From IMG/VR virus record IMGVR_UViG_3300021400_000072: DNA of 64,000 nucleotides. One strand, written 5' to 3'. The stretch comes from a virus. The translations under genes were made by a program, and so were the position numbers. Below, piece after piece: positions 10,077-64,000 of this stretch; the first letter of the stretch is position 1; every line of letters starts with the position of its first letter. Below the pieces are notes generated by a model. The model was not told where the DNA came from and did no database searches. It saw nothing but the letters and a program-made list of their open reading frames with translations.

Positions 10077-11825
10077 TTATTTATGAAAAGTCTTATTTAA
10101 ATTATTTTTTGAACAGCTGATTATCATATTGTCTGGATAACAATCAACATAACATTCTCCATTTTCGTATGCCATCATAACAATAGCACCTTTATCAGTA
10201 AAGACTTTATAAGTTAATTTGCGGCCTCCGCTTGATTTACTATGATGATAATTAGATAATCCAACTTTAGGTGAACAAGCATTAATTTGAATTATCTTAA
10301 TACCGTTTCTGTCAGAGTGCCATTGTAATTTAAATACATCACATTTTAATTGATTCTTTTTCTATGCTACTAAAGCATCAATAGCCTAATAAGAGAGGTC
10401 CCCAGCAGTGAAGAATTTCCATCCGTTTAAATTAAACATTAATGCAACAGACATCATATTTACAAAATGATGGTCATCAGTTTGTTTTAATTTAGAACGT
10501 TTTACTTGCCAAGACCAATCTAGTTTAATATTACCTGCGGACCAAGTAAAACCGTTAGATATGTATTTATAATTAATTCTCTTATCTTTAGCTATTGTTC
10601 CGATACTTTTTAAAGTAGAAATAGCTTTTTTCGCGGCTTTTACAGATTCCATTTCTTTATAATCTGATATAAAAATATTCTCTACTGTAAAAGTCTGGCA
10701 AATAGATTTTAAAATACTTAAATTTGCATGATCCCCGTGTCCGTGAGAAATAAATATAGCGTTTATTTTTGGCGGATTAATCTTTTTTAGCTTTTTAATT
10801 GTATCTCCCCCGCCAGGACCCGTATCTATTAAAACACAATTTTTAATTGTTTTATTATCATCTGCATACTCGGTGATAAGATAACTGTCACCATATAAAT
10901 TACTATTAGATTCAGACGTCCAAATTTGATGTATTCTTATTTTATTTTTTTTTGATGAAGGGGCTTGAGTTAATATTTCATTAACCTTCTTTTGTACTTT
11001 AGTTGTATCATATCCACAGAATTTTAATAATAATACTCTTATTTCACCTTTATCAAATTTATTTGCTATTACACATTGGGCGGCCGCCTATACAGTTTTA
11101 CCTTTTAGAGCATATATTTCATTAATATGAGTTTGAACTTTGTTAGCCCATGAAGATAAACGTTTTGTTCGATAGTCATTTTTACCCATGTATCCTGCAA
11201 TTGTAGCAATAGCAAGAGCATGAACAGTATTAGATTGATTTGAAACAATCTAATTTACTTTATTTTGTATTGCTTTTGCGTTCTATGTGCCAAAAGCGGC
11301 AAGCATAGCAGTTCTATTAGTACCAGATCCATAAGTGCCAAGAATTACCTAAGCCGCGCAAATAGTCGTTTGAAGATTATTCATTATAGGCATAGCATTA
11401 TATTTAGGTCTAATGTATCCTAAAACAAATCTACCTTTATATGTTCTACGACTACAACCACCATTATAATTTCCTGAAATAGTTCTGTTATATCCTACAC
11501 AGAATTCGGTATGATTAGGCTTTTTATTACTGTCACAATAGATGATAATATCTCCAGGGCGGACGCCTGAAGTTCCATTATGCCAAATTCCTAATTTCTT
11601 TGCTTTTGATATAGCATCACCAGAAATTTGAGAATATCCTCCTATTGTATCTATTCCGCCTGCATCCTATAAAGCTGCCATAATTGTCATTGTACCCCAA
11701 GCCGCAGACATTTTAGCACTATGATTATGTTTTTTTAATGTGTTTACAACATCCTAATGTGCGGTCTTACTACCGTCATATTTATTATAGGCTGTTAAAA
11801 CATCCCAAACTGTACATTTTCCCAT
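10077..11825 (-). CDS. putative lysin: N-terminal CHAP/NlpC-P60-like Cys-His hydrolase fused to C-terminal metallo-beta-lactamase-fold domain; TAG-recoded
   Basis: ATG at 11825 with RBS AAGGAGG. Reading frame continuous to TAA at 10077 through about 8 in-frame TAG codons. Motifs ...GDIIIYCDSN...HTEFCVGY... and ...ISHGHGDH.... Confidence 0.6.
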
Positions 11826-11837
11826 TTATTGTCCTCC

Positions 11838-12593
11838 TTATAAATTAACATCACTTGAAATGTAATATCCTGTCATTTTATAAGTTTTACAGAATTTTTG
11901 AATACGTGCTTTAAGATTTGCGGAAGTTGTATATTCTAATAAAAATGTTTGCATTTTATGACGAAGAATTCGTTTCATGTGACTTTTATACCATGAGTGC
12001 ATATCTTTTTTCTGCTAACCGAATTTTCCCTTTCCGCTATAGCTTTTAATTAAACTATAAACTTCCTCTTGTGTAACACCATCTATAAATGTGATTGTTT
12101 TATGAGAAGAATCTTTATCCATAAGTTTATCTAAAAACTAACTTCCGCCATTTATCATTATATATTTAGTTTTATCTATTGCCCGTATTCTTTTTAAGAG
12201 AGTAATAATACCATTATACATTTCTGTACTTTTGTGATATTCATATACATCTAGGTTATCTAGCCACCAACCTTGAAATCCGCGGTTTTTTAGTTCTCTT
12301 GCTCTATATACAATAAAATCTCTAACTGCGGGTTTCCTTAAATCGAGATAATATTCATGGGGCCAGTCCTATAATTTACTAAGCCGATAGGGTTTTAATT
12401 GTTTATAATAACTTCTCTAATTAGAAATAGAGCCGGCAGATAAATACCCTAAAAGGGTATAACCCGCGGCTCTTAAATCCTAAATCTATTTATTTGTATA
12501 ATCCTATGGCTAAATAACTAAAATAGTTTTAGTTTTTGCTTTTCCTAATTTCTTAGGAGTAGCTTTTGTTGTTAACATAACAATATAATTCAT
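11838..12593 (-). CDS. glycoside hydrolase-like TIM-barrel (GH114-like); TAG-recoded
   Basis: Continuous frame from ATG 12593 to TAA 11838 with about 9 in-frame TAGs; motifs RGFQGWWLDNLDV and MINGG. Confidence 0.45.
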
Positions 12594-12598
12594 TTATA

Positions 12599-13051
12599 TT
12601 ACCATTGCCAATCTATTTGACCATAAGGGTAGTATGGCATCCCTTCTTCTGTTCGCCATCGGCCTCTTCGTTTAATTTGCCGAAGATGAAGTTTTGTATT
12701 ATATCTTTGAGTTTTATGAGTTCCAGGGATATAAATATAACGAATTGAGCCATTTCTATGACGAATATCTAAATAGTGGCTATCCTTTCTTTGCATTTTT
12801 CCGTTATGTTTAAAATAATAGAATTTACCATTGATTACTTTAATACAATCTTTTGCAAGTTCTCCACGTTTATGAAGAGCGGAAGTAGATTGATAGCGGT
12901 AATACCAGTCGCCGCCAGATTTAAAAAGACCATATTTATTTGATGAATGAGTTTTTGCTTCTACTTTAACGGCAGATATTGCTATTTCCGCCAAAATTAC
13001 AAGAATAATTATGATGAATGTAAGAATAATAGTTTTATTCTTTTTTTGCAT
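12599..13051 (-). CDS. membrane-anchored protein with cell-wall-binding-like YG repeats (150 aa)
   Basis: N-terminal TM helix; GDWYYRY / GKFYYFKHNGKM repeats; adjacent to lysin genes. Confidence 0.5.
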   Translation of the reverse strand: MQKKNKTIILTFIIIILVILAEIAISAVKVEAKTHSSNKYGLFKSGGDWYYRYQSTSALHKRGELAKDCIKVINGKFYYFKHNGKMQRKDSHYLDIRHRNGSIRYIYIPGTHKTQRYNTKLHLRQIKRRGRWRTEEGMPYYPYGQIDWQW

Positions 13052-13094
13052 TATATTTTCTCCTTTATAATATTATAAAAAAAGACATACTAAA

Positions 13095-13457
13095 TTAAGG
13101 AAAGATGTCCTTACTTTCTTTCCAAAATTTTTCATATTCTTTTCGTTCGTTAGAGGCATTTTGCTTGCGGACAAAATCTATCCATCGAGAACGAATTTTT
13201 TCAATAGCAGGCATTAAATAACATTTATCTATAGTTTCTGGGTCAGAATGATAGAAAATTTCTTTAGGGATAGACACTTCTTCTGTAATTCTACCTTTTG
13301 ATACAGGTGAAAAATCTGTTAATTTAATGTGAATATTTCCATCAGAAAGTAAATTAAATTCCATGCTAAGATTTTGACTGAGGTATTTAAATAAAACGGT
13401 ATTCATTTTAATCCTTTCTTTTACCAGTTTTGAGTTACAATGAGGCGGCCACCGCAT
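13095..13457 (-). CDS. hypothetical protein (120 aa)
   Basis: ORF. Confidence 0.5.
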   Translation of the reverse strand: MRWPPHCNSKLVKERIKMNTVLFKYLSQNLSMEFNLLSDGNIHIKLTDFSPVSKGRITEEVSIPKEIFYHSDPETIDKCYLMPAIEKIRSRWIDFVRKQNASNERKEYEKFWKESKDIFP

Positions 13458-13915
13458 TTACAAGTATATCTTTCGGGATATTTTACCACTTTACCTGCTC
13501 TATGATAATAACCAACAATTTCTCCACAAGAGGAACAAGTAACAATGTATTTATATGTATCTGGAGAATATGCGGCGACCTTGGTTTTTGTGGTATTAAA
13601 GGTACAATTAATGCGGGCACACATTTCTTTAAATACTTTATCGTGACCATGGTCCTCATGGGTTTCTACGATAACGAGATAGTGCGCGCATTCGTGTTTG
13701 ATTACATCATCTATTGTTGCGGGGTTGCCTTCTTCAAGTAATTTGTAACTAAATTCCATACTTTCAGGGGTAACATATCCGCCACAAGAGAAGAAAAGGA
13801 CTCTACCAAGAGTTCTGGTAAGTCTTTTGTTAATTTTTACAGGAATTGTAAAATTATAACCTGCGGATTTGCAAATTTCTGTACAACGAGCGGTAAGGTC
13901 CTTTTCTGTCATCAT
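13421..13915 (-). CDS. SprT-like zinc metalloprotease domain protein
   Basis: HECAHYLV...HEDHGHD motif followed by Zn-ribbon CSSCG...CKCGG. Confidence 0.6.
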   Translation of the reverse strand: MMTEKDLTARCTEICKSAGYNFTIPVKINKRLTRTLGRVLFFSCGGYVTPESMEFSYKLLEEGNPATIDDVIKHECAHYLVIVETHEDHGHDKVFKEMCARINCTFNTTKTKVAAYSPDTYKYIVTCSSCGEIVGYYHRAGKVVKYPERYTCKCGGRLIVTQNW

Positions 13916-13938
13916 AATGATTTCCTTTCTTTTGTTAT

Positions 13939-14475
13939 TTATTCGTTAATAACTTCAATACAACAAGATTTCATTACTTCAAGAGCAGCTTTATGCTTTT
14001 CGGGGGTGGTTCCCGCACAACAAGAGGCATCTACAATAATTGGAATATTTGGATACATTGCTCTAAGAATAAGTGCATTAGAAATAACACAAATATCTGT
14101 ACATACTCCTACTATTTGAATTGAAGAATCTTCATTATCTTCCATACGATAAGAAATCCATTTAGTTATTCCAAAAGTTTCCTTTTGTATTGCACCTATA
14201 GAGTATGGAAAAAGTTCATTTATAATACACCATCCAGGAGTACCTGTTATACAATGTTTAGGAACTTTCTGTTCTTCTATTAAAAAATTATCATTTCCAT
14301 AATTTATAGAATGAGAATCTTGAGTAAAAATAATATTAGTTTTTTGTTTACAACTTAATTTTTTATAAGATTCTATTTTATTTTTAATATTAGGTACAAT
14401 TGCGCGGGCTTCAGGTGTTCCGAGAGGACCAGTTACAAAATCGTTTTGCATATCAATTACAATAAGTGCTTTCAT
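13939..14475 (-). CDS. isochorismatase-family cysteine hydrolase (nicotinamidase/YcaC-like)
   Basis: N-terminal KALIVIDMQNDF hallmark and later ...GVCTDICV... catalytic Cys context. Confidence 0.65.
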   Translation of the reverse strand: MKALIVIDMQNDFVTGPLGTPEARAIVPNIKNKIESYKKLSCKQKTNIIFTQDSHSINYGNDNFLIEEQKVPKHCITGTPGWCIINELFPYSIGAIQKETFGITKWISYRMEDNEDSSIQIVGVCTDICVISNALILRAMYPNIPIIVDASCCAGTTPEKHKAALEVMKSCCIEVINE

Positions 14476-14530
14476 TTAAATTCCTTTCTTGCGGAGGCTA
14501 GGTTATGTCAGGATTAAGCTACTTCCCGCA

Positions 14531-14983
14531 TTAATTATCAAACCAATAAAGAACATATACATCAGAAGGATAATAATATTCATAACCAGCAAATCTAATA
14601 TAATATTCTATTTGTTCGATAAAAAATTTAATGGGGTTAGTTGTTTCAACTATTTCATCACCGCAGTTATCATAATCAGTAATAGTAGGATTACACATTA
14701 AATAATTTTTTAAATCTGCAAAATTAACTTCTTTAAAATTGAAATACCCCATGGTATTTTGTATTTCTTGAATTTCTTTAGCAAAAGAAGGCTCAAGAAA
14801 AGTAGTGTGTAACTGATTCCAGGGAATATCATTTTCTAAAAGTTCAAATAATTCGTGATTACGTTTATTATAAGGTTTAATAGAAATGTATTTATCTTTT
14901 TCCTTGCTGAAAATTTCTATTTTATCGTAGAATCCTGTTTCAGTATTTCTTATAGCAACAGCTGTGTGAATATCTTTTCCCAT
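14531..14983 (-). CDS. hypothetical protein (150 aa)
   Basis: ORF. Confidence 0.5.
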   Translation of the reverse strand: MGKDIHTAVAIRNTETGFYDKIEIFSKEKDKYISIKPYNKRNHELFELLENDIPWNQLHTTFLEPSFAKEIQEIQNTMGYFNFKEVNFADLKNYLMCNPTITDYDNCGDEIVETTNPIKFFIEQIEYYIRFAGYEYYYPSDVYVLYWFDN

Positions 14984-15059
14984 TGTATCTCCTTTCTATG
15001 CGGGCGGTAGGTTATGTCAGGATTGAAGGTGCCGCCGCATCTTTTATTAGTTTATAAAT

Positions 15060-15290
15060 TTAATGAGGAAAAATGCGCATACAAAATTCTCGAATATCAG
15101 AATCCGAAATTGAGAAATATGCGATTGGATTTACAATAGTAAGAGAAGCTAATTCCAAAGCAGAAATGCTTGGAAATTTATTATCCCAATAGAGAATTCG
15201 ATTTTCAAGAGAAAAAGAATCCTGTGAAGCATTGCGAGCTTCCAAGTAATTTGATACTAGATTAAATGCGCGGGTTTGCTTAAAATCCAT
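15060..15290 (-). CDS. hypothetical protein (76 aa)
   Basis: ORF; minus promoter TTGCTA-N17-TATAAT at 15300-15345. Confidence 0.45.
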   Translation of the reverse strand: MDFKQTRAFNLVSNYLEARNASQDSFSLENRILYWDNKFPSISALELASLTIVNPIAYFSISDSDIREFCMRIFPH

Positions 15291-15299
15291 GTTATTACT

Positions 15300-15395
15300 T
15301 CCTTTCTATTGTTTCATTTTCTAAATATATTATATAATAAATTTTTAAAATTAGCAACTTGATTTTATAGAGATTTTTTGTTATAATATAATAAG
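15300..15395. promoter_or_regulatory. divergent promoter pair at the strand-switch point
   Basis: Minus TTGCTA-N17-TATAAT (15300-15345) and plus TTGATT-N17-TATAAT (15359-15393), back to back. Confidence 0.5.
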
Positions 15396-15416
15396 AAAAT
15401 AAAAGGAGATTAGATA

Positions 15417-15554
15417 TGAATGTAGTATTATTTATTATTTGTGTTATAATAGCGGGATCGGCAATGCTTCGCATTGCCGAGTTGAGTGTTAATTCAGCAA
15501 ATTTGCACTTCGTGCAAATTCTGCTAAATTCCACTCAACCAATTATTATATAGG
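15417..15554 (+). CDS. small hydrophobic peptide (45 aa)
   Basis: RBS AAAGGAG + ATG; predicted TM helix; overlaps strong hairpins. The antisense 79-aa minus ORF 15295..15534 runs through promoter DNA and is the less likely call. Confidence 0.3.
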
Positions 15555-15733
15555 ATAAAAATAGGGGGTAGTAGTATGACAATAGTATGTGATTGTACAG
15601 CTTGCTCTTATAATAGAGGCCGCTTTTGTAGAAATAGGTTAATTAAAATTACTAAATAGGGTATTTGTAAAAGATTAACTATGCGAAATTGGCGGGAGCC
15701 AGTTTAGTAGAGATTTATGGAGGGTTATAGAAA

Positions 15734-16204
15734 GTGTTAGTAGGAATCACAGGACATAGACCAGAAAGACTAGGCACCAATTGGCCTGTAGTAGAAAGAT
15801 GGATAGCTGGAAAGTTAGAAGAATATAAAGCAAGAGAAGAAAGAGTCAGTTTAATTACTGGCATGGCGCGAGGTGTTGACCAGATTGCGGCTACAACTGC
15901 AATTGATGCGGGGGTAGGTGTAAGATGTTATTACCCTTTCCCGCATAAAATGAGTAATTTAGAAGATTATGTTACAACTCATGCGGAAGTTGTTAGGTAT
16001 GAGGCAAATGAATATATGCCCAATGCGTATTTTATCAGGGACCGCCGCATTGTTGATGATTGTGATGTGCTTTTGGTTGTGTGGGATGGTATAAAATATG
16101 GGGGTACTTATTATACTTATAAGTATGCTCTTGAAAAGGGTAAGAAGGTTGAAGTTTTTAAGATACCTGTGCGAGGTGCAGAGATAAATAAGAGGCCTAT
16201 ATAA
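15734..16204 (+). CDS. SLOG-superfamily Rossmann protein (DprA/Smf-like or YpsA-like)
   Basis: GTG start with GGAGGG RBS; ...GMARGVDQIAATTAIDAGVGV...YYPFPH...RDRRIVDDCDVLLVVWDG... pattern; no TAG. Confidence 0.5.
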   Translation: MLVGITGHRPERLGTNWPVVERWIAGKLEEYKAREERVSLITGMARGVDQIAATTAIDAGVGVRCYYPFPHKMSNLEDYVTTHAEVVRYEANEYMPNAYFIRDRRIVDDCDVLLVVWDGIKYGGTYYTYKYALEKGKKVEVFKIPVRGAEINKRPI

Positions 16205-16239
16205 TGTAGGTTTAATCTGGAAAAAGGAGGGGCCGCCGC

Positions 16240-16593
16240 ATGATTGTTGGAGTTTGGTTTAAAGATAGGGATTGGTGTGAGAAATGGTTTGCGGATTTTT
16301 TAAGTAAGATTAATTATGATGTGGTTGATAGAGTGATTAGATCTAAGATATAGCCGCCTAGGATAATAATGAAGAATGGTAGTTATATTAAAGGTATTCC
16401 TGCAACAGATAATTCCCGGGGTCATAAGATGCATGTAGCTTATTTAGAACCGGGGATAAGAGATTCAGATATTTTTGATTATGTAATTTAGCCTACTGTT
16501 GTTATTTTTGATTTTAGAGATAACAGATATAAAAAAGGGGAGATTTATGAAGGTCTTTATGGGGGGTAGGTTAAATTGGACTAGGTTCCTTGA
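16240..16593 (+). CDS. hypothetical protein (117 aa), TAG-recoded
   Basis: RBS AAAAGGAGG + ATG; frame open to TGA at 16591 through 4 in-frame TAGs. Confidence 0.5.
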
Positions 16594-16684
16594 AATTGGG
16601 GGTAGAGTAATGAGTGATTAAGGTGCGGATCCCGCGCAGGGGAACCTTTTTGCATTTTTTGATTGAAGAATTTTTGGTTATGAA

Positions 16685-16740
16685 AGTTTCTTAAATTTGT
16701 ATTTCCACTATATATATAAGAGAAATACAAATTTAAGAAA
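16685..16740. repeat. perfect 19-bp inverted repeat (GTTTCTTAAATTTGTATTTC...GAAATACAAATTTAAGAAA)
   Basis: In the 230-nt non-coding gap before the recoded gene 16833; a second hairpin GAAAGTGAAAGG-TCACTTTC follows. Confidence 0.5.
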
Positions 16741-16832
16741 GTTACTATTTTATGAAAGTGAAAGGTCACTTTCGTAAAATATATAATTTTTTATTTTTAT
16801 ATAGAGTATAAAAATAAAAGGAGGATTCCAAA

Positions 16833-17552
16833 ATGGAATTAAAAAAAGATACTTTATATAGTATAGGCTAGATAGCTCAATGGTTTGGGTTAAAAGGTAA
16901 AAAATTTAGTAATGATAGTCAGAAGAATAAAAAATTATAGTAGTTAAAACTTTTTGCAAGTTATGAATTAAGAGGGAATAAAATAAAGAAGGTATTTATA
17001 AAATAGGTTTATTAGCCTGTATATAGTAAGCAAGGGAGTAAGAGTTATCAGATTATTAAAGATAATTATTAGAAATATTGGCAGGATAATGGAAAGGGGC
17101 TTGATACTATTGAAAGAGTTGGAGAAGAAATTTATAAAAATGGATTAGTTCCTGTCGCGAAAAATACTACTATTGCTTATGTGGGGAGAAGTAAAAGAGA
17201 AGAGTATGGAAAGAATTATAGTGCAGGAGGAGCAAAAGGATATAGTATATACTCTTGGGGAAAAAAGGTTCAACAAGGTAATTAGATTATATTAGTACCT
17301 TTAAATAAAGAAGAAGAAGAAATTAAGAATAAGTTAATTAAAAAATATTTTGGTAATACTACAGAAAAGCAGATTTTTGTACAAGGAATGGTTGATAATG
17401 GGTAGATTACTAAAGAATAGGCATGGAGTTTGTTGGAAGAGTTAACTGATATGAAAAATAGTTTTGGTGCTTTTAAGGCAGAATTTGAAACGCTTATTAA
17501 TAGTCCTATTGGTAGAGGAACTTATTTAATAGAGATGAAAGGAGCTTTTTAA
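16833..17552 (+). CDS. hypothetical protein (~239 aa), heavily TAG-recoded
   Basis: RBS AAAGGAGG; frame continuous from ATG 16833 to TAA 17550 through 13 in-frame TAGs. Confidence 0.55.
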
Positions 17553-17553
17553 T

Positions 17554-17877
17554 ATGGGATTTCGTTATTTTTTAGCACAGGATTTTTTAGAAGATTATGA
17601 AGATATATGCTTATTATTGTTAGATGAAGAAGGAAAAGAGATTTATCAAATTATTGCGAGGATTTTAAATATAAGTCAGTATGATTCTGATTTAATAAAA
17701 GAGTTTGAAGATAAGTATATTAAATTTTTTGAAAAAGAAATTTAGTGGATAGATGAAGAACATTTTTCTTTTCCTAAAGAGGTAGCTTGGGATTTGAAAG
17801 ATTGTCTAGATGAAAATGGAAGGATAGTAGATAACTTTGAAGGTGTTTTAGTAAGAGATATTAGGTTTAAAGAATGA
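17554..17877 (+). CDS. hypothetical protein (~107 aa), one in-frame TAG
   Basis: Extends the ORF-track ORF 17554..17745 through TAG to TGA at 17875. Confidence 0.45.
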
Positions 17878-18614: not shown

Positions 18615-18803
18615 TTAAATCTCCTTTAAAATGTGAATATAGCCGAATCGGAAAAGGACTTTATAAAAGTCCCATCCGATTCTAATTTTATCTTTTTCTT
18701 TTGTTGGTAGTTTAATTATTTTCATCATTTTTAAATATCCATTCATTATAAATATTATCGGAAGAAGCAAGTATGTCGCAATATTTGGAAAAAGGACAGT
18801 CAC
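18615..18803 (-). CDS. small hypothetical protein (62 aa)
   Basis: ORF. Confidence 0.35.
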   Translation of the reverse strand: MTVLFPNIATYLLLPIIFIMNGYLKMMKIIKLPTKEKDKIRIGWDFYKVLFRFGYIHILKEI

Positions 18804-18872
18804 AGCAAAAATCTGTTTCTTGACATGCTTCTTTTATAATTTCCATACCTTTTTTCATTTTATCAATCCAAT

Positions 18873-19091: not shown

Positions 19092-19093
19092 AA

Positions 19094-19309: not shown

Positions 19310-19490
19310 GTTATTTCCTTTCTGTGCTTTCCTCTTGACAATTATTATTATATCAGATTATCGGGAAAATACAATAGGTAATGTTGTACAAAAATGCGGA
19401 TTGATTTTTGTTGAATACTACGTATTGACAAAAATTCGGCGCTGACACAATGGTCAGCGCCCCGACCATTTTCTGGAAGGGGCGTTGCTA

Positions 19491-54747: not shown

Positions 54748-54813
54748 CAAAATAAAAAATTTTTGTTATACTATAAAAAATGAATTAATTTAAATTCAAA
54801 AGGAGATAAAAGG

Positions 54814-55356
54814 ATGAATTATAAAGATTTAAATTTACATACTGATAACGATATGTATTTTATTGAAGTATAGGGGAAGAAAATTAATATAAAAAAATAT
54901 CTTCCTATTAACGATAAAAAGGATTTAATTGAAATTACTCTACAAAAAGCAGAATAGGCGGACGGTACTTATAATGAAATTCTAATTGATATGTATTTTA
55001 ATTTACATCTTGTTTATCTTTATACCGATATAGTTTTTACTGATGAAGATAGAGAAGATGAAATGAAACTTTATGATGAATTAGAAAGTAGTGGATTGCT
55101 TGAAAGAATTCTTGATAAGATTCCAGATGAAGAATATAATACTTTAATGGATTATCTAAAAGCAATGCGTAAAGAAATTAGTTCTTATAAACATAGTGCG
55201 GCAGCTATGGTACAGAAATTGATCGTAGATTTGCCGAAGAATGCAGAAGCCGCCGCAAAGATTGTATAGAATTTTAATCCTGAAAAATATAAAGAAGTTG
55301 TTGATTTTGCTCAACATGCAAATGGTGATAGGCCAATTCCTTTAAATAATAAATAA
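54814..55356 (+). CDS. tail assembly chaperone-like protein
   Basis: Acidic small protein directly upstream of the tape measure gene; terminator-like hairpin at 55378-55425. Confidence 0.4.
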
Positions 55357-55454
55357 TAGGGCTAAATAATTTAATTTTGATCGCTCTCTTTGTATAAATA
55401 TACAAAGAGAGCGATTTTTTTATTTTATTTGAAATATAAAGGAGGAGATAATTA

Positions 55455-58400
55455 ATGGCTCAACAAGGAGGAAGAATAGATTTTCAAATAGGTTTTAAAA
55501 CCGATAAATCTGGAATATAGGATTTAAAGAAATCTTTACAATAGATACAAAAGATTAAACCTGCGAATTTCGATGGCACAAATCAAGATTTGCAAGAAGT
55601 TAAATCTACTGCTAAAGAAGTTGAGGCAGCGTTATCTAAGGCTTTTAATCCTAATATTAATTCTATAAATTTAAAAACATTTGATAATCAATTAAAAGCG
55701 TCAGGTAAAACTATAAATGATATATATACAAGTTTTTCTAAAGCTGGCGCACAAGGCTAGGTCGCATTTAGTCAAATGGCTAGGTCTGTACTTACCACAA
55801 ATCAGCAATTAAAAGAAACACATAGTATTATTAATTAGATGGGTACAACATTTGTTAATACTATTAAATGGGGTGTTGCATCTAGTATAATGAATACTTT
55901 TACAGCAAGTGTTCAAGGTGCTTTCACATATGTTGAAAGTTTAGAGAAATCTTTAACAAATATTAGAATTGTTACTGGTGATTCCCAAGAGAAGATGGAG
56001 CAATTTGCGGATTCTGCTAACCGTGCCGCTCAAGAATTGGGCCGTAGCACTATGGATTATAGTAAGGCCGCACTTACTTTCTATCAACAGGGTTTAGGAG
56101 AAGAAGATGTTCAGGCTAGAACTGAAGCCGTTTTAAAAGCATAGAATATTACTGGCGCGGGCTCATAGATGGCAGATTACTTAACCGCAGTGTGGAATGG
56201 TTATAAAGTCGCTAATGAATAGGCGTAGGTTTATGTCGATAAGCTCGCCGCAGTTGCAGATAGAAGTGCTTCTGACATGAGTTAGTTAGCTATTGGTATG
56301 TCTAAAGTTGCGTCTACTGCTAATACAATGGGTGTAAATGTAGATCAATTAAATGCTCAATTGGCTACTGTTATTGCTACAACAAGACAGGCGCCAGAAG
56401 CTGTCGGTACAGCATTTAAGACTATATATACTCGTTTGAATGATATTAAAACTGGCGCGGATGGTGCTTAGGTAAGTTTAGGAAACTATTCTGGTAAGAT
56501 GGCAGCATTAGGTTTTAATGTTCTTGATGCTACAGGTCATCTTAGAGATACAGGATAGGTTATGTAGGAAATAGGTGCCCGCTGGGAAGACTTAACAAGA
56601 GAACAACAAGTTTATTTGGCTACTACAATGGGTGGTCAAAGACAGGTTAACCAGTTAATGGCTCTATTTGACAACTGGACTACATATAGTGAATTATTAA
56701 ATACATCCCTTGAATCTGAAGGTACTCTTGCACAGAAAAACTCTGTTTATTTAGAGTCTCTTGGTGCTAAGATGGAACAATTAGGAGCAGCAGGAGAACG
56801 TGTAAAAGCTAGTTTAATTGATAATGAGAGTTTTGGTAATGTTATTGAATTATTAACAACTGGAACTAATTTATTAGGCAGTTTCATTTAGGCTATCGGC
56901 GGCGGTGGCACTGCTTTACTTGGATTAGGCGGTATCGCTACGCAAGTTTTTAGTGGCGTTATTTCTAAAGAAATTAATAATGCTATTGTTAATTTTCAAA
57001 ATATGAAATTTAATGCTTAGCAAACTGCAAAAGAATTATAGCTTACTCAACAGTTTGGAGAAAGAAATAATTTTGATCAATCTAAAGTTATTGATTAGAT
57101 GTTAAAAGCTAAACAATAGATGCAAGGATATTACTCTGTAATGTCTACTGAATAGAGAAATGCTTATAATGAATTAGTCAATGCTTTAGGTGTTGCTAAA
57201 GAGCAAGTTATTACAGAAGAAGATAAAATAAAAAAAGCTGAATAGTACAATAAAGCTTTACAAGCAGTTGCTGATGAATATTAGATAGATCTTTAGGCTC
57301 AACGGTTAGGAGTTGTAGAATATACTGATAGCATTACTAATTTATTAAATAATTTAAAAAAGGGATCAGGAGATAAATCTACTCTTTTTGCAGATTTAAA
57401 TTTACAAATTGAAGAATTAGAAACTAATTTAGGAACAATGTCTCCTAAATTAAAATCTATGTTTGAATAGCTTAAATCTCTACAAGGAGAAAAGGAAGAT
57501 AAAGATAGAATTTTAGCAGCTTTTTTCCCAAATGGAGATAAAGGACTTTAGCAATAGTCTTAGGCATTAAGAAGAAAAATTACAAATTTAATAAATTAGA
57601 TTAATAATGAAGTAAAAAATTTAACAGATTTAAGTATAGATATTGATGTTCATACTAAAGGATTAAAAGAAGCTAAAGAAGATTTGGCAAAAGCAGAAGA
57701 AGCTGTTAAGAATTATCAAAAAACAATGTCTCAAGCTTTAGATGTAAAGAATATAGTTTCAGGCATTGGAGAAATAGGTCGAATGTCATCTGCTTTTATG
57801 GCATTAGGAAATAGTATAAAAACAGCATTCGATTCTAACATATCTCCTTCTGAAAAATTTTTTAAAATTTTAATGAGTGCTTCTTACTCTATTCCTACGA
57901 TAGTAACTAGTTTTGAAAGATTAAAAACTTATACTAAATCTTTATCTGATGCTATAAAGGCGGCTAACATTGTAAAATAGGCATAGAATAAAATAGATAC
58001 TGCTAAAGCAGCGATTCAAGAAAAAGAAATTGCTAATAATGCAATAGAAAGTGGACAGAGAATAGCAGAGGCCACAGAAGAAGGTATAGTTACAACAGCT
58101 AAAGGTGCAGAAACAGTTGCTACTAATTTATTAGCAGCAGCTTAGGAAAGATTAGCAGCCGCAAGAGCAACAAATCCTTTAGGTTTAACTTTATTGGTAA
58201 TTGCTGGCGCAGTTTTAGCTATAAAAGGTCTTACTGCGGCATATGATGCTGTTACTATGTCTACTGAATAGGCAGGTTAGGCTATTGATAAATTTAATCA
58301 AAAAGCAGAACAAACTAAAAATACAATCAAATAGTATAATACTAATATTAGTAATTTAGATGCTGCTAAGGAAGAGTGGGAAGAGCTAGCTGATCGTGCT

Positions 58401-61400
58401 GGAAGTTATAATACAACTATTGATAACTTAACAGAAGACGAAAAGGCACGTTATTTTGAATTAAGCAATTTAATTGCTCAATATAATGAAGGTGCTGTTC
58501 AAGGATATGATGAACAAGGCAATGCAATTATTGCAAATAATGACGCTTTAAAAGAAACTATTTAGTTATTAAAACAAAAACGTCAAGAAGAAATTAATGA
58601 CACTTATTCAGGTGAAGATTTTTAGTAGGCTCAAAAAGGTCGTCAAGCCTATGCTAAAGACGCAAATAAACAAGGTAAAAAATTTACTAATATTGCAGAA
58701 GGCTCTGCTAATGAGATTTTAGATTATCTAAATTCATATGGAAATGATTTAGATGATGGATTAACAGGGTTTAGAGATAGACTTGCTGAGATTACTGCTA
58801 AAGGCGAAAAAGGTATATTAGAACATCAGGAAGAACTTATTCAAATTTTTGAAAAGTTAATGGAAAGTGGAAAATTACCTGACGCTTATATGTCACAACC
58901 CATTTTAGATACTTTAAAAGATTATAGTGATAAATATACTGATGATATAAAGGGAGCCTTAGATGGTTTTAACGAAGATGTAATTGGTGTACTTCAAGTT
59001 TCTACAGATAACGAAGGTTCTAATTTTACTAAAGCAGAATAGGCTGGCTTAACAAATATGAGAGGAATCGTTTCTTCTTATATAGAAGGAATGGATAAAT
59101 ATAACCCAGACGGAACTTTAAAAACACCTTAGGAAATTGCTAAACAAGTTTAGAAAGAAATTGTAACTCCTATTTATGAAAGTCTTGGTCAAATTGATCC
59201 TTAGACAGAAGAAAGTTTATATCAAAAATTAATTAAAAGTATTACAGAAGACGATAAATTACAAAATAATGATTTTAGCAGTTTAGAAGAAAAAAATAAT
59301 TATATCGTTCAAAAAATAGAAGATTTTATCCAATCTAATATTGAAGCATTTGAAAATTTAACTCCTGATGCTAAAAAAGCATTAGAAGATTTGTTTGCTA
59401 ATTTATATAATTTAGATAGTTTAAAAATTAATTTTAAAACTGGAAAAGTAGAATAGTCTGTAGATAAAGCATTAGATAGATTAGCAAAAAGGATTAACAA
59501 AGATTGGGATGAGCTTGATGCAAAAACTCAAGATAAAAAGAGAAACGCTTTAACCTCAATATTAAAATCTGATATAGATGAAAAAGAATTAGATTATATT
59601 ACATAGCATATAGAAAAAGCTATAAAAATATATGGTAATGAAGTTGAAGCAATAAAAGCATTACAGGAATAGGCTTCTAAATTAGGTAATTTAGATGATA
59701 ATTTAAACACTATGAGTTTGTTAGACAAACAAGCTAGTGGAGAAAAATTAGGTCAAAAAGAACAATAGTCTTTATAGTCTGGATTAAATACTTTAAAAGA
59801 TAGTTATCCTGATTTAATCAAGCAAGTTTAGATTCTTCAAACATAGTGGATGCAAGGTACTTCCGCCTATGAATAGGCTTTAAGAAAAGTAAAAATGGCT
59901 TTAATAGATACATTAGGAGAATCTTTAAATAAAGCTTTACTTTAGGCAGAAGATAGTGTTTTATAGCAAGAAAAAGCATTATAGGATTATAATAATAAAA
60001 TTTTAGATTTAACAAGAACTACTGAAGATTATCAAACAATTTTACGATTAAGCAAAGTAACAGATTAGACTAAACAACAAAGTTTAATTAAAATTGCAAC
60101 AAGCTACGAAAGTTGTAGAGATTAGTTAGAAAAATATTATAAAACAATACAAGAACATCCTGACGATTTATAGGCACAAGAACCCGAAAGATTTGCGCTA
60201 GAGCGTTCTACCAGAGCAGCAGAAAATGGAGAGCAGTTTGGTATTGATCCAGAACGTATTCAAACTTTAGCGGCACAATATTCTGAATTAGCAGACCAAG
60301 AAGCAGCAGGATATGAAGGTTTAAATTAGAATGCAGAATTAGCAGCAGACGCCGCCACTCGTTATATTAGACTTAATGATGCTATTGCTGATTTACAACA
60401 AAATTATGATAAAGTAACATCTGTTTTGTCTGATTTACGAACTTTAGGACTAGAAGAAATTGCGGCAAATAAAGATTTATCTGATACTTTTCAACAGATA
60501 AAAAAAGATGTTGCAGGAATAGTGGATACGTCAGAAGATTTAATTGGAGATGACTGGATAAAAGATCATGCTGGTTAGATTCAAGCTGCTTTAGAAGGTG
60601 ATCAATAGGCCATAGATAGTTTACGAGAAGCTGCTCAAGAAGAAATTTTAACTAATGTAGGTATCGATTTTGAAGGTTTTGATGAACAAAAAGCAGGATT
60701 TTTATCTCGCTTAAATGAATTAGAAGATGGTGCTGATATAACAGCAGAAATGTCTTTAGATGATGTAGCTTTTCTTCAAAATCTTGTTTCTGCTATGTAG
60801 CAAGCTGGCATGGCGCAAGCAGATATTGAAAATGCTTTAAGCGGACTTGGAATAGATGTTGATTTAGCTCCTTATGAAGAAGGATTAAATTCTGCCATTG
60901 ATCAAGCTGCAGAAGCGGGAATGCTTTCTTCTGATGCTTTTGCAGGCAATGCAGGTGTAAATTCTACTATAACTACTTCTACGGATACTGCCCAAGATAC
61001 AGTATAGGCTCCTGGTTATGATGTGACTCCAACAGACGTTCCTTTTAGCATTTCTTTACCTGTAGTTGCACCTGCAATGTATCCAGGAGTAGCAATTCCT
61101 ACTTTTACAGGAGGAATTGCTACTGCACCAGGCTCTTATCCCTCAATTGAAGTTACTCCTAAAACAGAGTCTGTTGAAGCTACCAAAGAAACAACTGGAA
61201 CGGGTTTATAGGTAGTAGGTGCGAGAAAATCTTCTGGTGGTAAAGTTAGTCATAAAAATGCATCAGGTGGTAATAAAAAATCTTCTGGTGGTAAAGGTAA
61301 AGGCGGTAAAGGTAAAAAAGGAGGAGGTAAAAAAGGCTCAACTAAAACTCCTAAAGTTTAGAAACCTATTACAGATAAACCTGACCGTTACCATGATGTA

Positions 61401-64000
61401 AATCTTAAATTAAAAGATATTGATAATGATTTAGGCAAACTTCAGAAAAAATAGCAAAAATTAACTGGCAAAGATTTACTTAAAAATCTTAATGAGCAAT
61501 TAAAACTTCTTGAAAAACAAGTAGCTACTTATAAAGAAAAAATTTAGTTAGAAAAACAATAGGCTGATTAGATTCGTAATCGTTTAAAGAAATAGGGCGC
61601 TACATTTGGTCCTGACGGTAATATATCTAATTATAATAAAGTTCTTTCTGATGCTTTAAATGAATATAATGCAACTATCGCTAAATATAATAAAATGAGT
61701 GCGGAAGAGCAATAGAAAAATAAAGATATGCTCGAAAAGGCTAAATAGAAATATGAAAATCTCAAGAAAGATATTTAGCGTTACGATAAAATTATATCTG
61801 AAGAAATTCCTGGATTAGAGAAAGCTGTACAAGAAGCAATAGATAAACAAACTTAGATTAACATTCAAAAATTTAAAGTTAAAGTAGATTTAGAGATGGA
61901 TATGTCTGAAGCATAGCGTGAATTTAATTAGTTTGTTAAGAAAGTAAAAAAACAACTAAGAGATGACGATGTTCTTGGAAATGCTCAGGCATATTTAAAA
62001 GATTATTCTTCTTATTATAAAGGCGGGTATGATGTAATTCAAGCGTTAACGGATCAAATCCGTAATACTAGAAATTAGATTAATAATATTGATAAACAAG
62101 GTTCTTCTTCGGTATACGGAAAAGATAGGGCGGCCGCAATTAAAGATTTACAAGAATATACTAAAGAGTTAATGAGCAATCTTTCAGATATAGAAGATGT
62201 TGTTGCAAATATTAAAAATACTATCTTTGATGCTATTGATAAGGCTCAAGATGCTTTTGATGAACAAAAGAAAGAGTATGAATATATTGCAGATTTAATT
62301 GAACATAATCAAAAGGTTGTATAGTTATTATATGGTGAAGATGCTTATAATCAATTATAGGAATATTATAAATTACAATAGAAGAATAATAATAATCAAT
62401 TAGATTTTTTAAGACGGCAAAAAGAAATGTGGTATTCTCGTATGGAAGCAGAGCGGAAGAGGATGAATAATCTTACTGAAGGTACAAACGCCTGGAAAGA
62501 AGCTAACGACCGCTTTGAAGAATATAAGAGACATTGGATGGATTCTTTGGATGAAATTAATGGTTAGATTTAGAACTCTATTGAGAATTTAATTGATAAA
62601 TATACTAATGCTGTTGATAAAATCTTTTTAGCTTTTGAGAATAATATTACTGGCGGAAAAGGCTTAGAAAATATTTCTGAGGAATGGTAGTTAATCGGCA
62701 AGCAAGCGGATCAATATTTAGATAAAGTAAATTCTATGTATGAGATTGATAAACTTGAAAATGCTTATAGGGATGCTATTGATGATAATGACGGTAATTT
62801 AAAAGCACAACAATCTTTAAATAATTTAATGAATGAACAATTAAAATATTTAAAGGATAAAGATAAATTAACTCAATATGATGTTGATAGAGCAAATGCT
62901 TTATTACAAATTGAAATTAAACGTTTAGCTTTAGAGCAAGCTCGTCAAAGTAAAACTAAATTACGTTTAAGAAGAGACTCGCAAGGTAATTATACTTATC
63001 AATATACTGCGGATGAAGATGCTACAAGACAGGCTCAACAAGAACTCGCGGATGCTGAAAACAGTCTATATAATTTAACGAAATAGTCATATAAAAATAA
63101 TTTAGATGATTATTATGATACTACGGAAGAAATGAATGAAAAGATAAGGGATGTATATAAGGATACAACTTTATCTGCAGAAGAGCAAAATCAAAAAATT
63201 GCTATGATTTATGAATATTATGGTGATATTATAAATGGTTTAACATAGCAAAATGAAGATTTAAAGAGATTTATGATGGAAGATACATTTAATGAAATGG
63301 CTAAAATGTATGATACCAACGTATAGAACTTTAAAAATATGACAGATGAAGAAAAAGATATTTTTATGAATGATATGGTTCCTTATTGGAAATCAAGTAT
63401 TCAAGATATGGCTGATACTTTTGCGGGCGCAGGTGGTTTTGGTCCTATAACGTAGGATCTATTTAAAGATTTAATAGATAATTCTAAAGATTATCAAGAT
63501 TCATTAGATGAAATAGGTAAAGTTGCAAATGTTAGTTTAGAATAGATTAAAAATGCTACAGATATAAATATTCAAAGAGCAGAATCATTATTAGAAAAAA
63601 ATGATGAATTAATTAATTCTTATAATAAAGAAATGACAAAAGTACAAGAGGTTATTAATCAAGTAAATGCATTAACTAATGCTTATCAAAAGGCTAAAAA
63701 TGAAGCAATTGCCGCGACATAGGCCGCTTATAATTTTAATCAACAAGATAATGCTAAGACAGTAAGTTCTTTAATAAACAATAAAAAGACTGCGGGAGAT
63801 GCTCAATATAGAAAAGCGGCATCTTTCGATACCGGAGGATATACTGGAGATTGGGGTGATATGGGAAAAGCAGCAATCTTACATGAAAAAGAGATTGTAT
63901 TAAATTCTTATGACACAACTAACCTTTTATCGGCGGTTAAAATTACAAGAACATTAGATAATATTATATCTAATTTTGCAATGAAGCCTTTCACTCTTGG
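55455..64000 (+). CDS. tail tape measure protein (partial, >2840 aa), heavily TAG-recoded
   Basis: One continuous frame from ATG 55455 (RBS GGAGGAG) to the window end; frame continuity checked across several ORF-track fragments. K/G-rich linker at 61230-61370 and coiled-coil segments. Confidence 0.6.

What the first reader, a model, noticed from the sequence alone, without database searches (positions are those of the whole stretch)
10077..64000. TAG is a sense codon in late-gene blocks on both strands; early genes and tRNAs use the standard code
Genes at 16240-17877 and 37682-64000 (plus strand) and 10077-12593 (minus strand, lysis cassette) keep a single frame through many TAG triplets. Examples: 13 in gene 16833; dozens in the tape measure gene; terL, portal and capsid are all affected. 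Frame continuity was checked across ORF-track fragments, for example 55455 to 55839 to 56616. These genes end at TAA or TGA. All minus-strand genes in 6.6-10 kb and 12.6-37.5 kb have no in-frame TAG. The tail tube gene 52567..53634 (355 aa) has none and the capsid gene has one, consistent with TAG avoidance in the most highly expressed genes. Paralog alignment (38796 vs 39204: CPKCGRTMEE vs C-TAG-KCGRTM-TAG-E) puts TAG opposite P and E, compatible with Gln, but identity is unproven.
Basis: seen in the sequence. Interest (0 to 1): 0.85.

Follow-up and report, generated by a model that had tools for sequence, protein, structure and literature searches.

The report
Phage reads TAG stop as glutamate
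This gut-phage genome piece writes its late (virion, packaging, lysis) genes with the stop codon TAG used as an ordinary codon, a known phage trick, but the comparisons here say TAG means glutamate rather than the glutamine everyone assumes, read by a phage-made suppressor tRNA built on a glutamate-tRNA body.

Summary
With TAG as sense, coding density rises from 0.37 to 0.97 in 37.6-64 kb and from 0.17 to 0.995 in the minus-strand lysis cassette. TGA-sense and TAA-sense do not rescue these regions. Recoded translations give full-length portal, TerL, sigma-like and endolysin profile matches.

The amino acid is not glutamine. Opposite the window's TAG codons, relatives carry E 59%, D 11%, Q 6.5%. 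That is the profile of the window's genuine Glu codons (E 61%, D 11.5%). Of 46 TAG sites conserved in TAG-free relatives, 37 are Glu and 2 are Gln.

A contig identical to window 1-11254 continues the tRNA array. It carries a tRNA(CUA) 1.05 kb beyond the window's left edge. The body of this tRNA is a Firmicutes-type tRNA-Glu: all 115 cellular tRNAs sharing its 5' signature are Glu, and the nearest are Glu(CUC), one anticodon base away.

Relatives in the same phage family use TAG as Glu, TGA as Trp, or the standard code.

Stop-codon recoding of late genes is known. A TAG-to-Glu assignment in phages was not found in the searchable literature, and one key preprint says only Gln and Trp are seen. 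No proteomic proof exists. The rest of the genome was not searched for release factors or synthetases.

The parts
37682..64000 (+). Late block written with TAG as a sense codon. It holds the sigma-like factor, two phrog_3314 paralogues, split terL, a homing endonuclease, portal, a scaffold-like protein, the capsid-position protein, head and tail proteins, and the tape measure (cut by the window end).
   Evidence: Coding density 0.365 under the standard code and 0.967 with TAG sense. There are 22 tiled genes, all ending in TAA or TGA, 21 of them with 1-84 in-frame TAG and one (52567-53634) with none. PHROG matches are full length.
10077..12593 (-). Lysis cassette with TAG as sense. Gene 10077-11825 is endolysin-like (2 CW_7 repeats plus a metallo-beta-lactamase fold, 8 TAG). 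Gene 11838-12593 is a GH114-family glycoside hydrolase (8 TAG).
   Evidence: Density 0.17 rising to 0.995. Pfam CW_7 76 bits and GH114 67.5 bits. PHROG endolysin 80 bits. The cassette sits 6 nt downstream of the TAG-free gene 12599-13051 on the same strand.
15576..17877 (+). Small plus-strand block of genes of unknown function with in-frame TAG: 15576-15854 (10), 16240-16593 (4), 16833-17552 (9) and 17554-17877 (1). Gene 15863-16204 has none.
   Evidence: No Pfam or PHROG match.
12599..15474 (-). Minus-strand genes readable with the standard code (SprT-like, isochorismatase-like and others).
   Evidence: No internal TAG. Pfam matches.
18712..37555 (-). Minus-strand block of mostly small genes readable with the standard code (SPFH/Band 7, DUF5758, exonuclease-like). 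A few ORFs meet a TAG only near their 3' end.
1..6591 (-). tRNA gene array (at least 17 tRNAs in the window) that continues beyond the left edge. No CUA anticodon lies inside the window. The amber suppressor tRNA(CUA) lies 1050-1122 nt beyond window position 1, at L081 12304-12376.
   Evidence: ARAGORN and Rfam. L081 is 100% identical to window 1-11254. tRNA(CUA) in L081 and L082 scores 55.6 bits against the Rfam tRNA model.
4224..4300 (-). Ordinary phage tRNA-Glu(CUC). Its body differs from that of the suppressor.
2786..2859 (-). Ordinary phage tRNA-Glu(UUC), found by Rfam only.
37682..38794 (+). Sigma-factor-like protein at the head of the late block. It carries 10 in-frame TAG, so its own synthesis would need suppression.
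   Evidence: phrog_5767 'sigma factor', 170.8 bits with TAG=E and 166.9 with TAG=Q.
40403..43126 (+). Large terminase gene. Exon 1 is 40403-41275 and exon 2 is 42260-43126. A 984-nt insertion (41276-42259) carries an HNH/NUMOD1 endonuclease ORF (41496-42251). TAG is used in both exons and in the endonuclease.
   Evidence: Relatives L003, L008 and L036 have the uninterrupted junction FDR#Y|RSLW. Pfam HNH_3 and NUMOD1.
43563..45260 (+). Portal protein with 11 in-frame TAG.
   Evidence: phrog_2739 portal, 247.5 bits (E) and 244.7 (Q). At sites 196, 381 and 563, 31-32 of 32 TAG-free relatives have E.
47250..48323 (+). Capsid-position protein, TAG-poor (1 TAG against 27 GAA/GAG). Its identity as major capsid protein is not confirmed.
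   Evidence: phrog_4088, function unnamed. No PDB sequence match.
52567..53634 (+). Tube-position virion protein with no TAG (0 of 15 Glu-type codons).
   Evidence: phrog_2729 'virion structural protein'. Only a weak PDB hint to a tail tube protein, E=0.29.
55455..64000 (+). Tape-measure-size ORF, open to the window end, with 84 in-frame TAG and no TAA or TGA.

Best explanation
The window is part of a large (about 130-140 kb) gut phage of a family whose contigs appear to come from ruminant-gut metagenomes. It probably infects a standard-code Firmicute.

Its late genes use TAG as a codon for glutamate. These are the sigma-like factor, packaging, head, tail and lysis genes. TAG makes up about 2.5% of their codons and 27% of their Glu-type codons.

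The codon is read by a phage-encoded amber suppressor tRNA(CUA). This tRNA sits in the phage's own array of at least 31 tRNA genes, 1.05 kb beyond the window's left edge. Its body is a Firmicutes/Clostridia-type tRNA-Glu, and its anticodon differs from tRNA-Glu(CUC) by C36 to A.

Inferred steps:
- The host glutamyl-tRNA synthetase still charges this tRNA, because it keeps the Glu-type D-arm, the 4-nt variable loop, U35 and A37.
- The tRNA lacks the acceptor-stem features used by GlnRS and by the GatCAB amidotransferase, so Glu is delivered.
- Genes without internal TAG can be translated from the start of infection. TAG-containing genes, including the lysis cassette embedded among TAG-free genes on the same strand, yield full-length protein only once the suppressor has accumulated. 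This gives a translational timer for late and lytic functions, as proposed for other recoded phages.
For: Shown:
1. TAG is sense in the late blocks.
2. In HSPs of 45-90% identity to 80 related loci, residues opposite the window's TAG are E 59.2%, D 11.4%, Q 6.5% (n=3573). This is almost the profile of genuine GAA/GAG codons in the same alignments (E 61.2%, D 11.5%). Log-likelihoods are E -5827, D -9231, Q -10090.
3. Using only relatives with no in-frame TAG, 95 sites are covered. The majority residue is E at 52, D at 8 and Q at 7. Of 46 sites at least 80% conserved, 37 are E and 2 are Q. In the controls, true E codons give 97 of 105 E and true Q codons give 48 of 54 Q.
4. Reciprocal test: in-frame TAGs of relatives lie opposite window E 47%, D 12%, Q 9%, plus 473 opposite window TAG. 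In-frame TGAs of other relatives lie opposite W 68%, which is a method control.
5. An independent genome region beyond the window also gives E as the best fit.
6. PHROG scores are higher with TAG=E than with TAG=Q for 9 of 10 late proteins, +37 bits in total. Pfam HNH_3, NUMOD1 and DUF2726 are also slightly higher with E.
7. A tRNA(CUA) lies on a contig 100% identical to window 1-11254. The same tRNA sits at the same place in an 82%-identity relative.
8. All 115 cellular tRNAs with its 5' acceptor/D-arm signature are tRNA-Glu (102 UUC, 13 CUC), and all are from Firmicutes.
9. In nearest-neighbour typing with the anticodon masked, the top isotype is Glu at 85.5 and the next is Cys at 70. Gln is not among the six best-scoring isotypes, the sixth scoring 56.
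10. The best phage-database hits are annotated tRNA-Glu.
11. Other Glu-type tRNA(CUA) genes occur in further viral contigs whose IMG sample numbers recur among this phage family's contigs.

Inferred from established knowledge (my own, not tested here): the identity elements of tRNA-Glu, GlnRS and GatCAB, and the timing model (Borges et al. preprint).
Against: - There is no protein-level evidence. E and Q differ by 0.98 Da and only mass spectrometry can settle the residue.
- The suppressor tRNA is not inside the window. The link rests on a 100% identical 11.25-kb overlap with another assembly.
- How a GluRS would accept A36 is unknown.
- From memory, engineered E. coli tRNA-Glu(CUA) suppressors insert a mixture of Glu and Gln, so partial Gln insertion cannot be excluded.
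- Nine of the 46 conserved sites are not E in relatives (D 3, Q 2, K 2, R 1, F 1).
- The gains in profile score with E are small per protein.
- The 'early' and 'late' labels rest on gene content and orientation, not on expression data.
- About 60 kb of the genome could not be examined for RF2, GluRS or other code-change genes.
Confidence: 0.85

Rival explanations
1. Ordinary 'code 15' recoding. TAG is read as glutamine, as assumed for crAss-like, Lak, phAss-1 and other TAG-recoded phages and as gene callers translate it.
For: This is the default in the literature. Q is the third most frequent residue opposite TAG at 6.5%. Two conserved sites are Q in relatives. One small protein scores 1.4 bits better with Q. 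CUA resembles the Gln anticodon CUG, and amber suppressors are often glutaminylated in E. coli (statement in the Borges preprint).
Against: Sites of genuine CAA/CAG codons are Q in 57% of aligned cells, but TAG sites are Q in 6.5% and E in 59%. Among conserved sites, 37 are E against 2 Q. The synonymous route CAG to TAG should dominate if TAG were Gln, yet relatives show GAA/GAG at those positions. The suppressor body is Glu-type, not Gln-type.
Confidence: 0.04
2. Ambiguous decoding. The suppressor is charged partly with Glu and partly with Gln, through GlnRS mischarging or GatCAB transamidation, so TAG positions carry a mixture. Selection tolerates this at sites where Glu is ancestral.
For: From memory, engineered tRNA-Glu amber suppressors in E. 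coli are only partly specific. The 1:72 pair of the suppressor is a weak G-U. TAG is depleted in the most abundant virion proteins, as expected if decoding is costly or imprecise.
Against: The substitution profile at TAG sites is indistinguishable from that of true Glu codons, including strictly invariant Glu positions. This argues that Glu is what functions there. Depletion in abundant proteins is equally explained by limited suppressor supply.
Confidence: 0.09
3. Not recoding. The fragments are pseudogenes, a decaying prophage or an assembly or sequencing artefact, or they reflect occasional read-through by host tRNAs.
For: Under the standard code the late region looks like a field of short ORFs.
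Against: Only TAG interrupts the frames, never TAA or TGA, over 26 kb. The same TAG positions recur in independent assemblies. Read-through products are full-length homologues of portal, TerL and others. A dedicated tRNA(CUA) is encoded. Many relatives share the trait.
Confidence: 0.01
4. TAG encodes pyrrolysine or another non-standard residue. ARAGORN labels the tRNA 'tRNA-Pyl'.
For: The ARAGORN label for any CUA anticodon.
Against: The tRNA has an ordinary Glu-type cloverleaf with a large D-loop, unlike tRNA-Pyl as I recall it. No pyl genes appeared among the proteins scanned. TAG sites behave as Glu.
Confidence: 0.01

Closest known systems
TAG-recoded ('genetic code 15', TAG to Gln) phages: crAss-like, Lak and the gemstone clades of Borges et al., especially 'Agate' (about 127-154 kb, cattle/pig gut, codes 11, 4 and 15 within one clade; preprint 10.1101/2021.08.26.457843)
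   Same: In-frame TAG is concentrated in structural, packaging and lysis genes. Early-type genes are compatible with the standard code. The phage encodes a tRNA(CUA) within a large tRNA array. Late modules are scattered on both strands. Close relatives use different codes: TAG, TGA or none. The proposed role is translational timing of late and lytic genes.
   Different: The amino acid. Here TAG behaves as Glu and the suppressor has a tRNA-Glu body. That preprint states that only TAG to Gln and TGA to Trp were observed in phages whose code differs from the host's. Membership of the Agate clade itself could not be tested because no Agate sequence was available.
TGA to Trp (code 4) recoded phages
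   Same: Same logic of late-gene stop-codon recoding. Sister lineages of this very family use it: TGA lies opposite W in 68% of cells.
   Different: A different stop codon, amino acid and suppressor.
Peritrich ciliate nuclear code (NCBI table 30, TAA/TAG to Glu)
   Same: It is the only standard-table precedent I know of for a stop codon read as glutamate.
   Different: It is a eukaryotic nuclear code that reassigns both TAA and TAG across the whole genome. Here TAA remains the main stop codon, only TAG is reassigned, and only in part of a viral genome.
Laboratory amber suppressors built from tRNA-Glu (E. coli synthetic suppressor sets of about 1990; recalled from memory, not checked here)
   Same: A tRNA-Glu body with a CUA anticodon can insert Glu at UAG.
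   Different: Those constructs are artificial and, as I recall, only partly specific (some Gln). The phage tRNA is natural, is of Firmicutes type and is apparently good enough to support about 250 TAG codons in 26 kb of essential genes.
phAss-1 / proposed Phassvirus (PMC10607447)
   Same: A phage of about 136 kb with 36 tRNA genes and TAG in TerL, portal and tape measure.
   Different: It was reported as TAG to Gln with Gln-type suppressors. No nucleotide similarity to this window was found in the phage collection.

Membership tests
Stop-codon-recoded phage (late-gene TAG reassignment) | Conserved genes are interrupted only by TAG and become full-length homologues when TAG is read through. | tested here: met
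Stop-codon-recoded phage (late-gene TAG reassignment) | Recoding is concentrated in structural and lysis genes, and early-type genes are readable with the standard code. | tested here: met
   The early and late labels are inferred from gene content.
Stop-codon-recoded phage (late-gene TAG reassignment) | A phage-encoded suppressor tRNA with anticodon CUA. | tested here: met
   It is not in the window. It is present 1.05 kb beyond the left edge on a contig 100% identical over 11,254 nt.
Stop-codon-recoded phage (late-gene TAG reassignment) | Accessory code-change genes (RF2, an aminoacyl-tRNA synthetase). These are seen in a minority of such phages. | tested here: inconclusive
   None among the larger proteins scanned from the window, nor among those of about 17 kb beyond its left edge. 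About 60 kb of the genome was unreadable with these tools.
Genetic code 15 (TAG = Gln) | TAG positions correspond to glutamine in homologues. | tested here: not met
   E 59% against Q 6.5%. Among conserved sites, 37 are E against 2 Q.
Genetic code 15 (TAG = Gln) | The suppressor tRNA has a Gln-type body or identity. | tested here: not met
   The body is Glu-type.
'Agate' clade of Borges et al. | Terminase phylogeny places the phage within the clade. Genome size is about 127-154 kb, the source is cattle or pig gut, and codes are mixed. | not testable with these tools
Pyrrolysine system | tRNA-Pyl architecture plus pylS/pylBCD genes. | tested here: not met
   An ordinary Glu-type cloverleaf. No pyl domains among the scanned proteins. 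The scan covered only part of the genome.
NCBI table 30 (TAA/TAG = Glu) | Both TAA and TAG are sense codons. | tested here: not met
   TAA ends 19 of the 28 late genes whose stop codon lies in the window, and 34 of 41 early genes.

The most novel reading that the evidence does not exclude
TAG to Glu is a natural genetic-code variant of bacteriophages that has not been described. It is created by a one-base anticodon change (CUC to CUA) in a Firmicutes-type tRNA-Glu. It is shared by a whole clade of phages of about 110-140 kb, apparently from ruminant guts, whose sister lineages use TGA to Trp or the standard code. The amino acid given to a recoded stop codon in phages would then not be limited to Gln and Trp, and current pipelines that translate every recoded TAG as Q would mistranslate these phages.
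Probability: 0.6. Interest if true: 0.85.

Novelty: new variant of a known kind. Interest (0 to 1): 0.78.

Why it matters
Late-gene stop-codon recoding in phages is established, but the field works with two assignments: TAG to Gln and TGA to Trp. It explains them by the readiness of host GlnRS and TrpRS to charge suppressor tRNAs. A clade that reads TAG as glutamate through a tRNA-Glu-derived suppressor has four consequences.

- The repertoire is wider than thought, and a third synthetase (GluRS) can be co-opted.
- There is a concrete, testable tRNA with which to study how GluRS tolerates an A36 anticodon and how GatCAB and GlnRS are avoided.
- Gene callers such as prodigal-gv, Pharokka-gv or any 'table 15' annotation put a neutral Gln where an acidic Glu belongs. 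This affects about 2.5% of late-protein positions (about 250 in this window). It degrades homology searches, structure prediction and metaproteomic peptide matching.
- The tRNA is a natural amber-suppressing tRNA-Glu that may interest genetic-code engineering.

The family also holds three codes side by side (TAG as Glu, TGA as Trp, standard), which makes it a good system for studying how recoding starts.

Tried and rejected
- one viral-collection scan was wasted on a pattern that was one N too long. One search repeated it correctly.
A search for RF2 or GluRS over the remaining ~60 kb was therefore not possible.
- a quick control on DUF2828-anchored loci used all ORFs of 100 aa or more and gave a 'Q/K/N/H' signal. 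I traced it to antisense ORFs of conserved genes, where sense Leu CTA against TTG/CTG/CTT reads on the other strand as TAG against CAA/CAG/AAG. After restricting to tiled genes, the window's own clade again gives E. The distant lineages with Trp-like or other tRNA(CUA) bodies give a noisy Q > K signal that I do not rely on.
- I tested the idea that early genes carry a deliberate 'backup' TAA/TGA shortly after a TAG stop. The distances of 2-17 codons are what a 33% G+C sequence gives by chance, at about 0.057 TAA/TGA per codon. I drop the idea.
- the base after TAG is not distributed differently from the base after GAA/GAG (P=0.11).
- bulk codon and amino-acid composition is compatible with either E or Q and does not decide the question.
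- the GH114 Pfam score is the same with E and Q (67.5 and 67.1).
- a PDB sequence search did not identify the capsid-position protein and gave only a weak tail-tube hint.
- Rfam found no group I intron model in the terL insertion.
- six literature searches found no report of TAG to Glu in phages. Ivanova et al. 2014 could not be read.


Full report
**1. The observation**

The window is 33% G+C. I listed ORFs bounded only by TAA or TGA and counted in-frame TAG. The plus strand from 37682 to the window end is then tiled without gaps by 22 genes, 21 of which carry between 1 and 84 in-frame TAG and one (52567-53634) none.
- The last ORF, 55455-64000, has 84 TAG and no TAA or TGA in 2847 codons. 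Its two other frames hold 344 TAA and 175 TGA.
- The same holds for two minus-strand genes, 10077-11825 and 11838-12593, with 8 TAG each.
- It also holds for a small plus-strand group at 15576-17877.

Greedy tiling gives these coding densities under the standard code and with TAG as sense:
- 37.6-64 kb: 0.365 and 0.967.
- 10077-12593: 0.17 and 0.995.
- 15.5-17.9 kb: 0.285 and 0.88.

Making TGA or TAA sense does not rescue these regions. The minus-strand blocks at 12.6-15.5 kb and 17.9-37.6 kb are already dense (0.93 and 0.67) and change little.

The read-through proteins are real. PHROG profiles for portal, the N- and C-terminal halves of TerL, a sigma-like factor and others are matched end to end across TAG positions. 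The lysis genes match CW_7/endolysin and GH114 families.

- Gene 16833-17552 has 9 TAG, not 13.
- Gene 15576-15854, with 10 TAG, belongs to the recoded set.
- Several minus-strand ORFs meet a TAG only within their last 2-17 codons. This is what is expected if TAG is their stop codon under the standard code. The short distance to the next TAA or TGA is no more than chance in this A+T-rich DNA.

**2. Which amino acid**

I fetched 80 loci encoding relatives of the portal from the viral collection. I then compared the window's TAG-containing proteins with them by tblastn, with X written at TAG so that nothing was presupposed.
- Close relatives (90% identity or more) keep TAG at 261 of 273 positions.
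- In alignments of 45-90% identity, the residues opposite TAG are E 59.2%, D 11.4%, Q 6.5%, S 4.3%, K 4.1% (n=3573).
- In the same alignments the window's genuine Glu codons see E 61.2% and D 11.5%. Its genuine Gln codons see Q 56.7%, K 10.1% and E 8.0%.
- The log-likelihood of the TAG column counts is -5827 under the Glu profile, -9231 under Asp and -10090 under Gln.

To avoid counting related sequences many times, I repeated the test per site, using only the 32 loci with no in-frame TAG.
- 95 TAG sites are covered by at least 8 such witnesses.
- The majority residue is E at 52 sites, D at 8 and Q at 7.
- Of 46 sites at least 80% conserved, 37 are E, 3 D, 2 Q, 2 K, 1 R and 1 F.
- In the controls, true E codons give 97 of 105 E and true Q codons give 48 of 54 Q.
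- Examples are portal residues 196, 381 and 563 (31-32 of 32 E), TerL residues 23, 137 and 290 (24-26 of 24-26 E), and the single TAG of the capsid-position protein (18 of 18 E).

The reciprocal test agrees. In-frame TAGs of relatives lie opposite window E (47%), D (12%) and Q (9%), plus 473 opposite window TAG. In-frame TGAs of other relatives lie opposite W (68%), so the method recovers the expected answer for a known reassignment.

Genes beyond the window's left edge, in contigs of the same clade, also give E as the best fit.

Profile scores from an independent library are higher with TAG=E than with TAG=Q for 9 of 10 late proteins, +37 bits in total. Pfam HNH_3, NUMOD1 and DUF2726 also score slightly higher with E. 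If TAG were Gln, the synonymous route CAG to TAG should make TAG sites look like Gln sites. They do not.

**3. The decoder**

No tRNA in the window has a CUA anticodon. The tRNA array on the minus strand, however, runs off the left edge.

The protein of window 886-1254 is encoded on several public contigs. One of them, L081 (ENA ERZ28612966), is 100% identical to window 1-11254 and continues for 9 kb. It holds 31 tRNA genes, including a tRNA(CUA) at L081 12304-12376. That is 1050-1122 nt beyond window position 1, on the same strand as the array. The same tRNA lies between tRNA-Val and tRNA-Ser in L082, and in an 82%-identity relative of 133 kb.

Evidence on its body:
- Its D-arm is GUCA/AGAC with a large D-loop, its variable loop is 4 nt, and its anticodon loop is CU-CUA-AA.
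- I scanned one genome per prokaryotic species for its 5' signature, allowing two degenerate positions and one optional base. All 115 tRNAs recovered are tRNA-Glu (102 UUC, 13 CUC).
- The nearest are Clostridia-type tRNA-Glu(CUC) with anticodon loop CU-CUC-AC. The suppressor anticodon is therefore one base away (C36 to A).
- I masked the anticodon and compared it with about 1000 phage and cellular tRNAs. The best isotype is Glu at 85.5 and the next is Cys at 70. Gln is not among the six best-scoring isotypes, the sixth scoring 56. The reference set is enriched in Glu tRNAs, because the loci were chosen with the Glu signature. It still holds more than 900 other tRNAs.
- In the phage collection, three of its five hits are annotated tRNA-Glu and the other two lie under no annotated feature.
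- Other Glu-type tRNA(CUA) genes exist in further viral contigs.

The phage also keeps ordinary tRNA-Glu(UUC) and tRNA-Glu(CUC) genes in the window, with different bodies.

**4. How it most likely works**

Shown: TAG is a sense codon with the evolutionary behaviour of Glu, and a Glu-type tRNA(CUA) is encoded next to the window.

Inferred from textbook identity rules, which I did not test:
- The suppressor keeps the D-arm, the missing nucleotide 47, U35 and A37 that GluRS uses.
- Firmicute GluRS enzymes that also charge tRNA-Gln already tolerate variation at position 36.
- The G1-U72 pair, A73 and the enlarged D-loop are not what GlnRS or GatCAB recognise.
- Together these would mean that Glu is delivered.

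Inferred from the arrangement:
- The lysis cassette, with 16 TAG, sits 6 nt downstream of a TAG-free gene on the same strand.
- The sigma-like factor that heads the late block carries 10 TAG.
- TAG is 27% of Glu-type codons overall. It is depleted in the capsid-position protein (1 of 28, P=0.0016), the scaffold-like protein (6 of 62, P=0.0007) and the tube-position protein (0 of 15, P=0.009).

This fits the published idea that recoding holds back late and lytic proteins until the suppressor is available, with suppressor supply limiting for the most abundant proteins. No expression data exist. No release factor or synthetase gene was found among the larger proteins scanned in the window, or among those of about 17 kb to its left. 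The rest of the genome could not be read.

**5. Comparison with what is known**

The phenomenon (late-gene TAG recoding plus a phage suppressor tRNA) is that described for crAss-like, Lak and the 'gemstone' clades. The description of the Agate clade fits this family: 154 +/- 27 kb, cattle and pig gut, codes 11, 4 and 15 within one clade, and late modules scattered over the genome. The portal relatives here come from contigs of about 110-142 kb and fall into three groups:
- TAG-recoded lineages, such as L001-L027.
- TGA-recoded lineages, such as L044 and L053-L058.
- Unrecoded lineages, such as L029-L037.

I could not test clade membership because I had no Agate sequences.

What differs is the amino acid. 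[quoted passage not shown] Later papers and tools translate recoded TAG as Gln by default. Six full-text searches found no report of TAG to Glu in a phage. The library holds open-access papers only, and Ivanova et al. 2014 could not be read. My novelty judgement is therefore 'not found', not 'proven absent'. The defining feature of code 15 (Gln) was tested and not met, so I file this as a new variant of a known kind.

**6. Verdict**

My confidences are:
- About 0.98 that TAG is sense in these genes.
- About 0.85-0.9 that it stands for Glu.
- About 0.8 that the neighbouring Glu-type tRNA(CUA) is the decoder.
- About 0.5 for the timing role.

The decisive missing evidence is peptide mass spectrometry across TAG sites and aminoacylation of the suppressor.

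Noticed in passing
window 1338-1930 (-): A full-length ROOL RNA (Rfam RF03087, 280.6 bits against a gathering score of 99.1) sits inside the phage tRNA array, between tRNA genes.
   Followed up: no
window 41276-42259 (+), within terL 40403-43126: A 984-nt insertion splits the large terminase gene exactly at FDR#Y|RSLW. Relatives L003, L008 and L036 are uninterrupted there. The insertion encodes an HNH_3/NUMOD1 endonuclease (41496-42251) that itself uses 5 TAG codons, and it is probably a self-splicing intron, although Rfam found no intron model. Relatives L014 and L069 have insertions at other terL positions. A free-standing homing-endonuclease-like gene (43214-43573) follows terL.
   Followed up: partly
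window 6324-6395 (-); also L081 15647-15720: This tRNA has an 8-nt anticodon loop (UUUUUGAC; ARAGORN reports anticodon 'tttg'; Rfam tRNA 51.3 bits) and its isotype is unclear. A second 8-nt-loop tRNA ('gcat') outside the window has the body of the phage tRNA-Ala(UGC) of a relative. They may be quadruplet or frameshift decoders, or damaged copies.
   Followed up: partly
window 81-202 (-); L081 16294-17799: A degenerate tRNA-like element (Rfam tRNA 34.8 bits, apparently without a T-arm) overlaps a sub-threshold YrlA (Y-RNA-like) hit (E=0.88). A DUF2828/DUF7788/VWA protein is encoded about 5 kb beyond the window start. This might be a Ro60/Y-RNA-like module.
   Followed up: no
loci L001-L080 (relatives of the portal 43563-45260): One phage family holds three codes side by side. 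Some lineages are TAG-recoded, with TAG opposite E. Some are TGA-recoded, with TGA opposite W in 68% of cells (for example L044, L053-L058, L070). Some are unrecoded (for example L029-L037, L069).
   Followed up: partly
loci L218, L237, L238 (Trp-like); L229-L233, L240 (unclear); L212 (UCA): More distant phages that share the DUF2828 gene carry tRNA(CUA) genes with other bodies, several closest to cellular tRNA-Trp(CCA). One carries a tRNA(UCA). Residues opposite their TAG codons look more like Q/K than E, but this signal is noisy and was partly an antisense-ORF artefact.
   Followed up: partly
window 24764-24837 (-): A lone second tRNA-Lys(UUU) gene (Rfam 77.1 bits) lies in the middle of the early-type gene block, far from the array.
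   Followed up: no
window 36881-37555, 36606-36881, 35150-35380, 7305-8198, 8080-8772 (all -): These early-type genes appear to end at TAG under the standard code. Once the suppressor is active they would gain C-terminal extensions of 2-17 residues. In 7305-8198 a TAG is followed directly by TAA.
   Followed up: partly
L208 8115-11978 (-), outside the window: In a 97%-identity relative, a 1287-aa protein with a collagen-repeat match just below Pfam's cut-off and a calcineurin-like phosphoesterase domain, probably a fibre, has no in-frame TAG. Not every virion-type gene of this clade is recoded.
   Followed up: no
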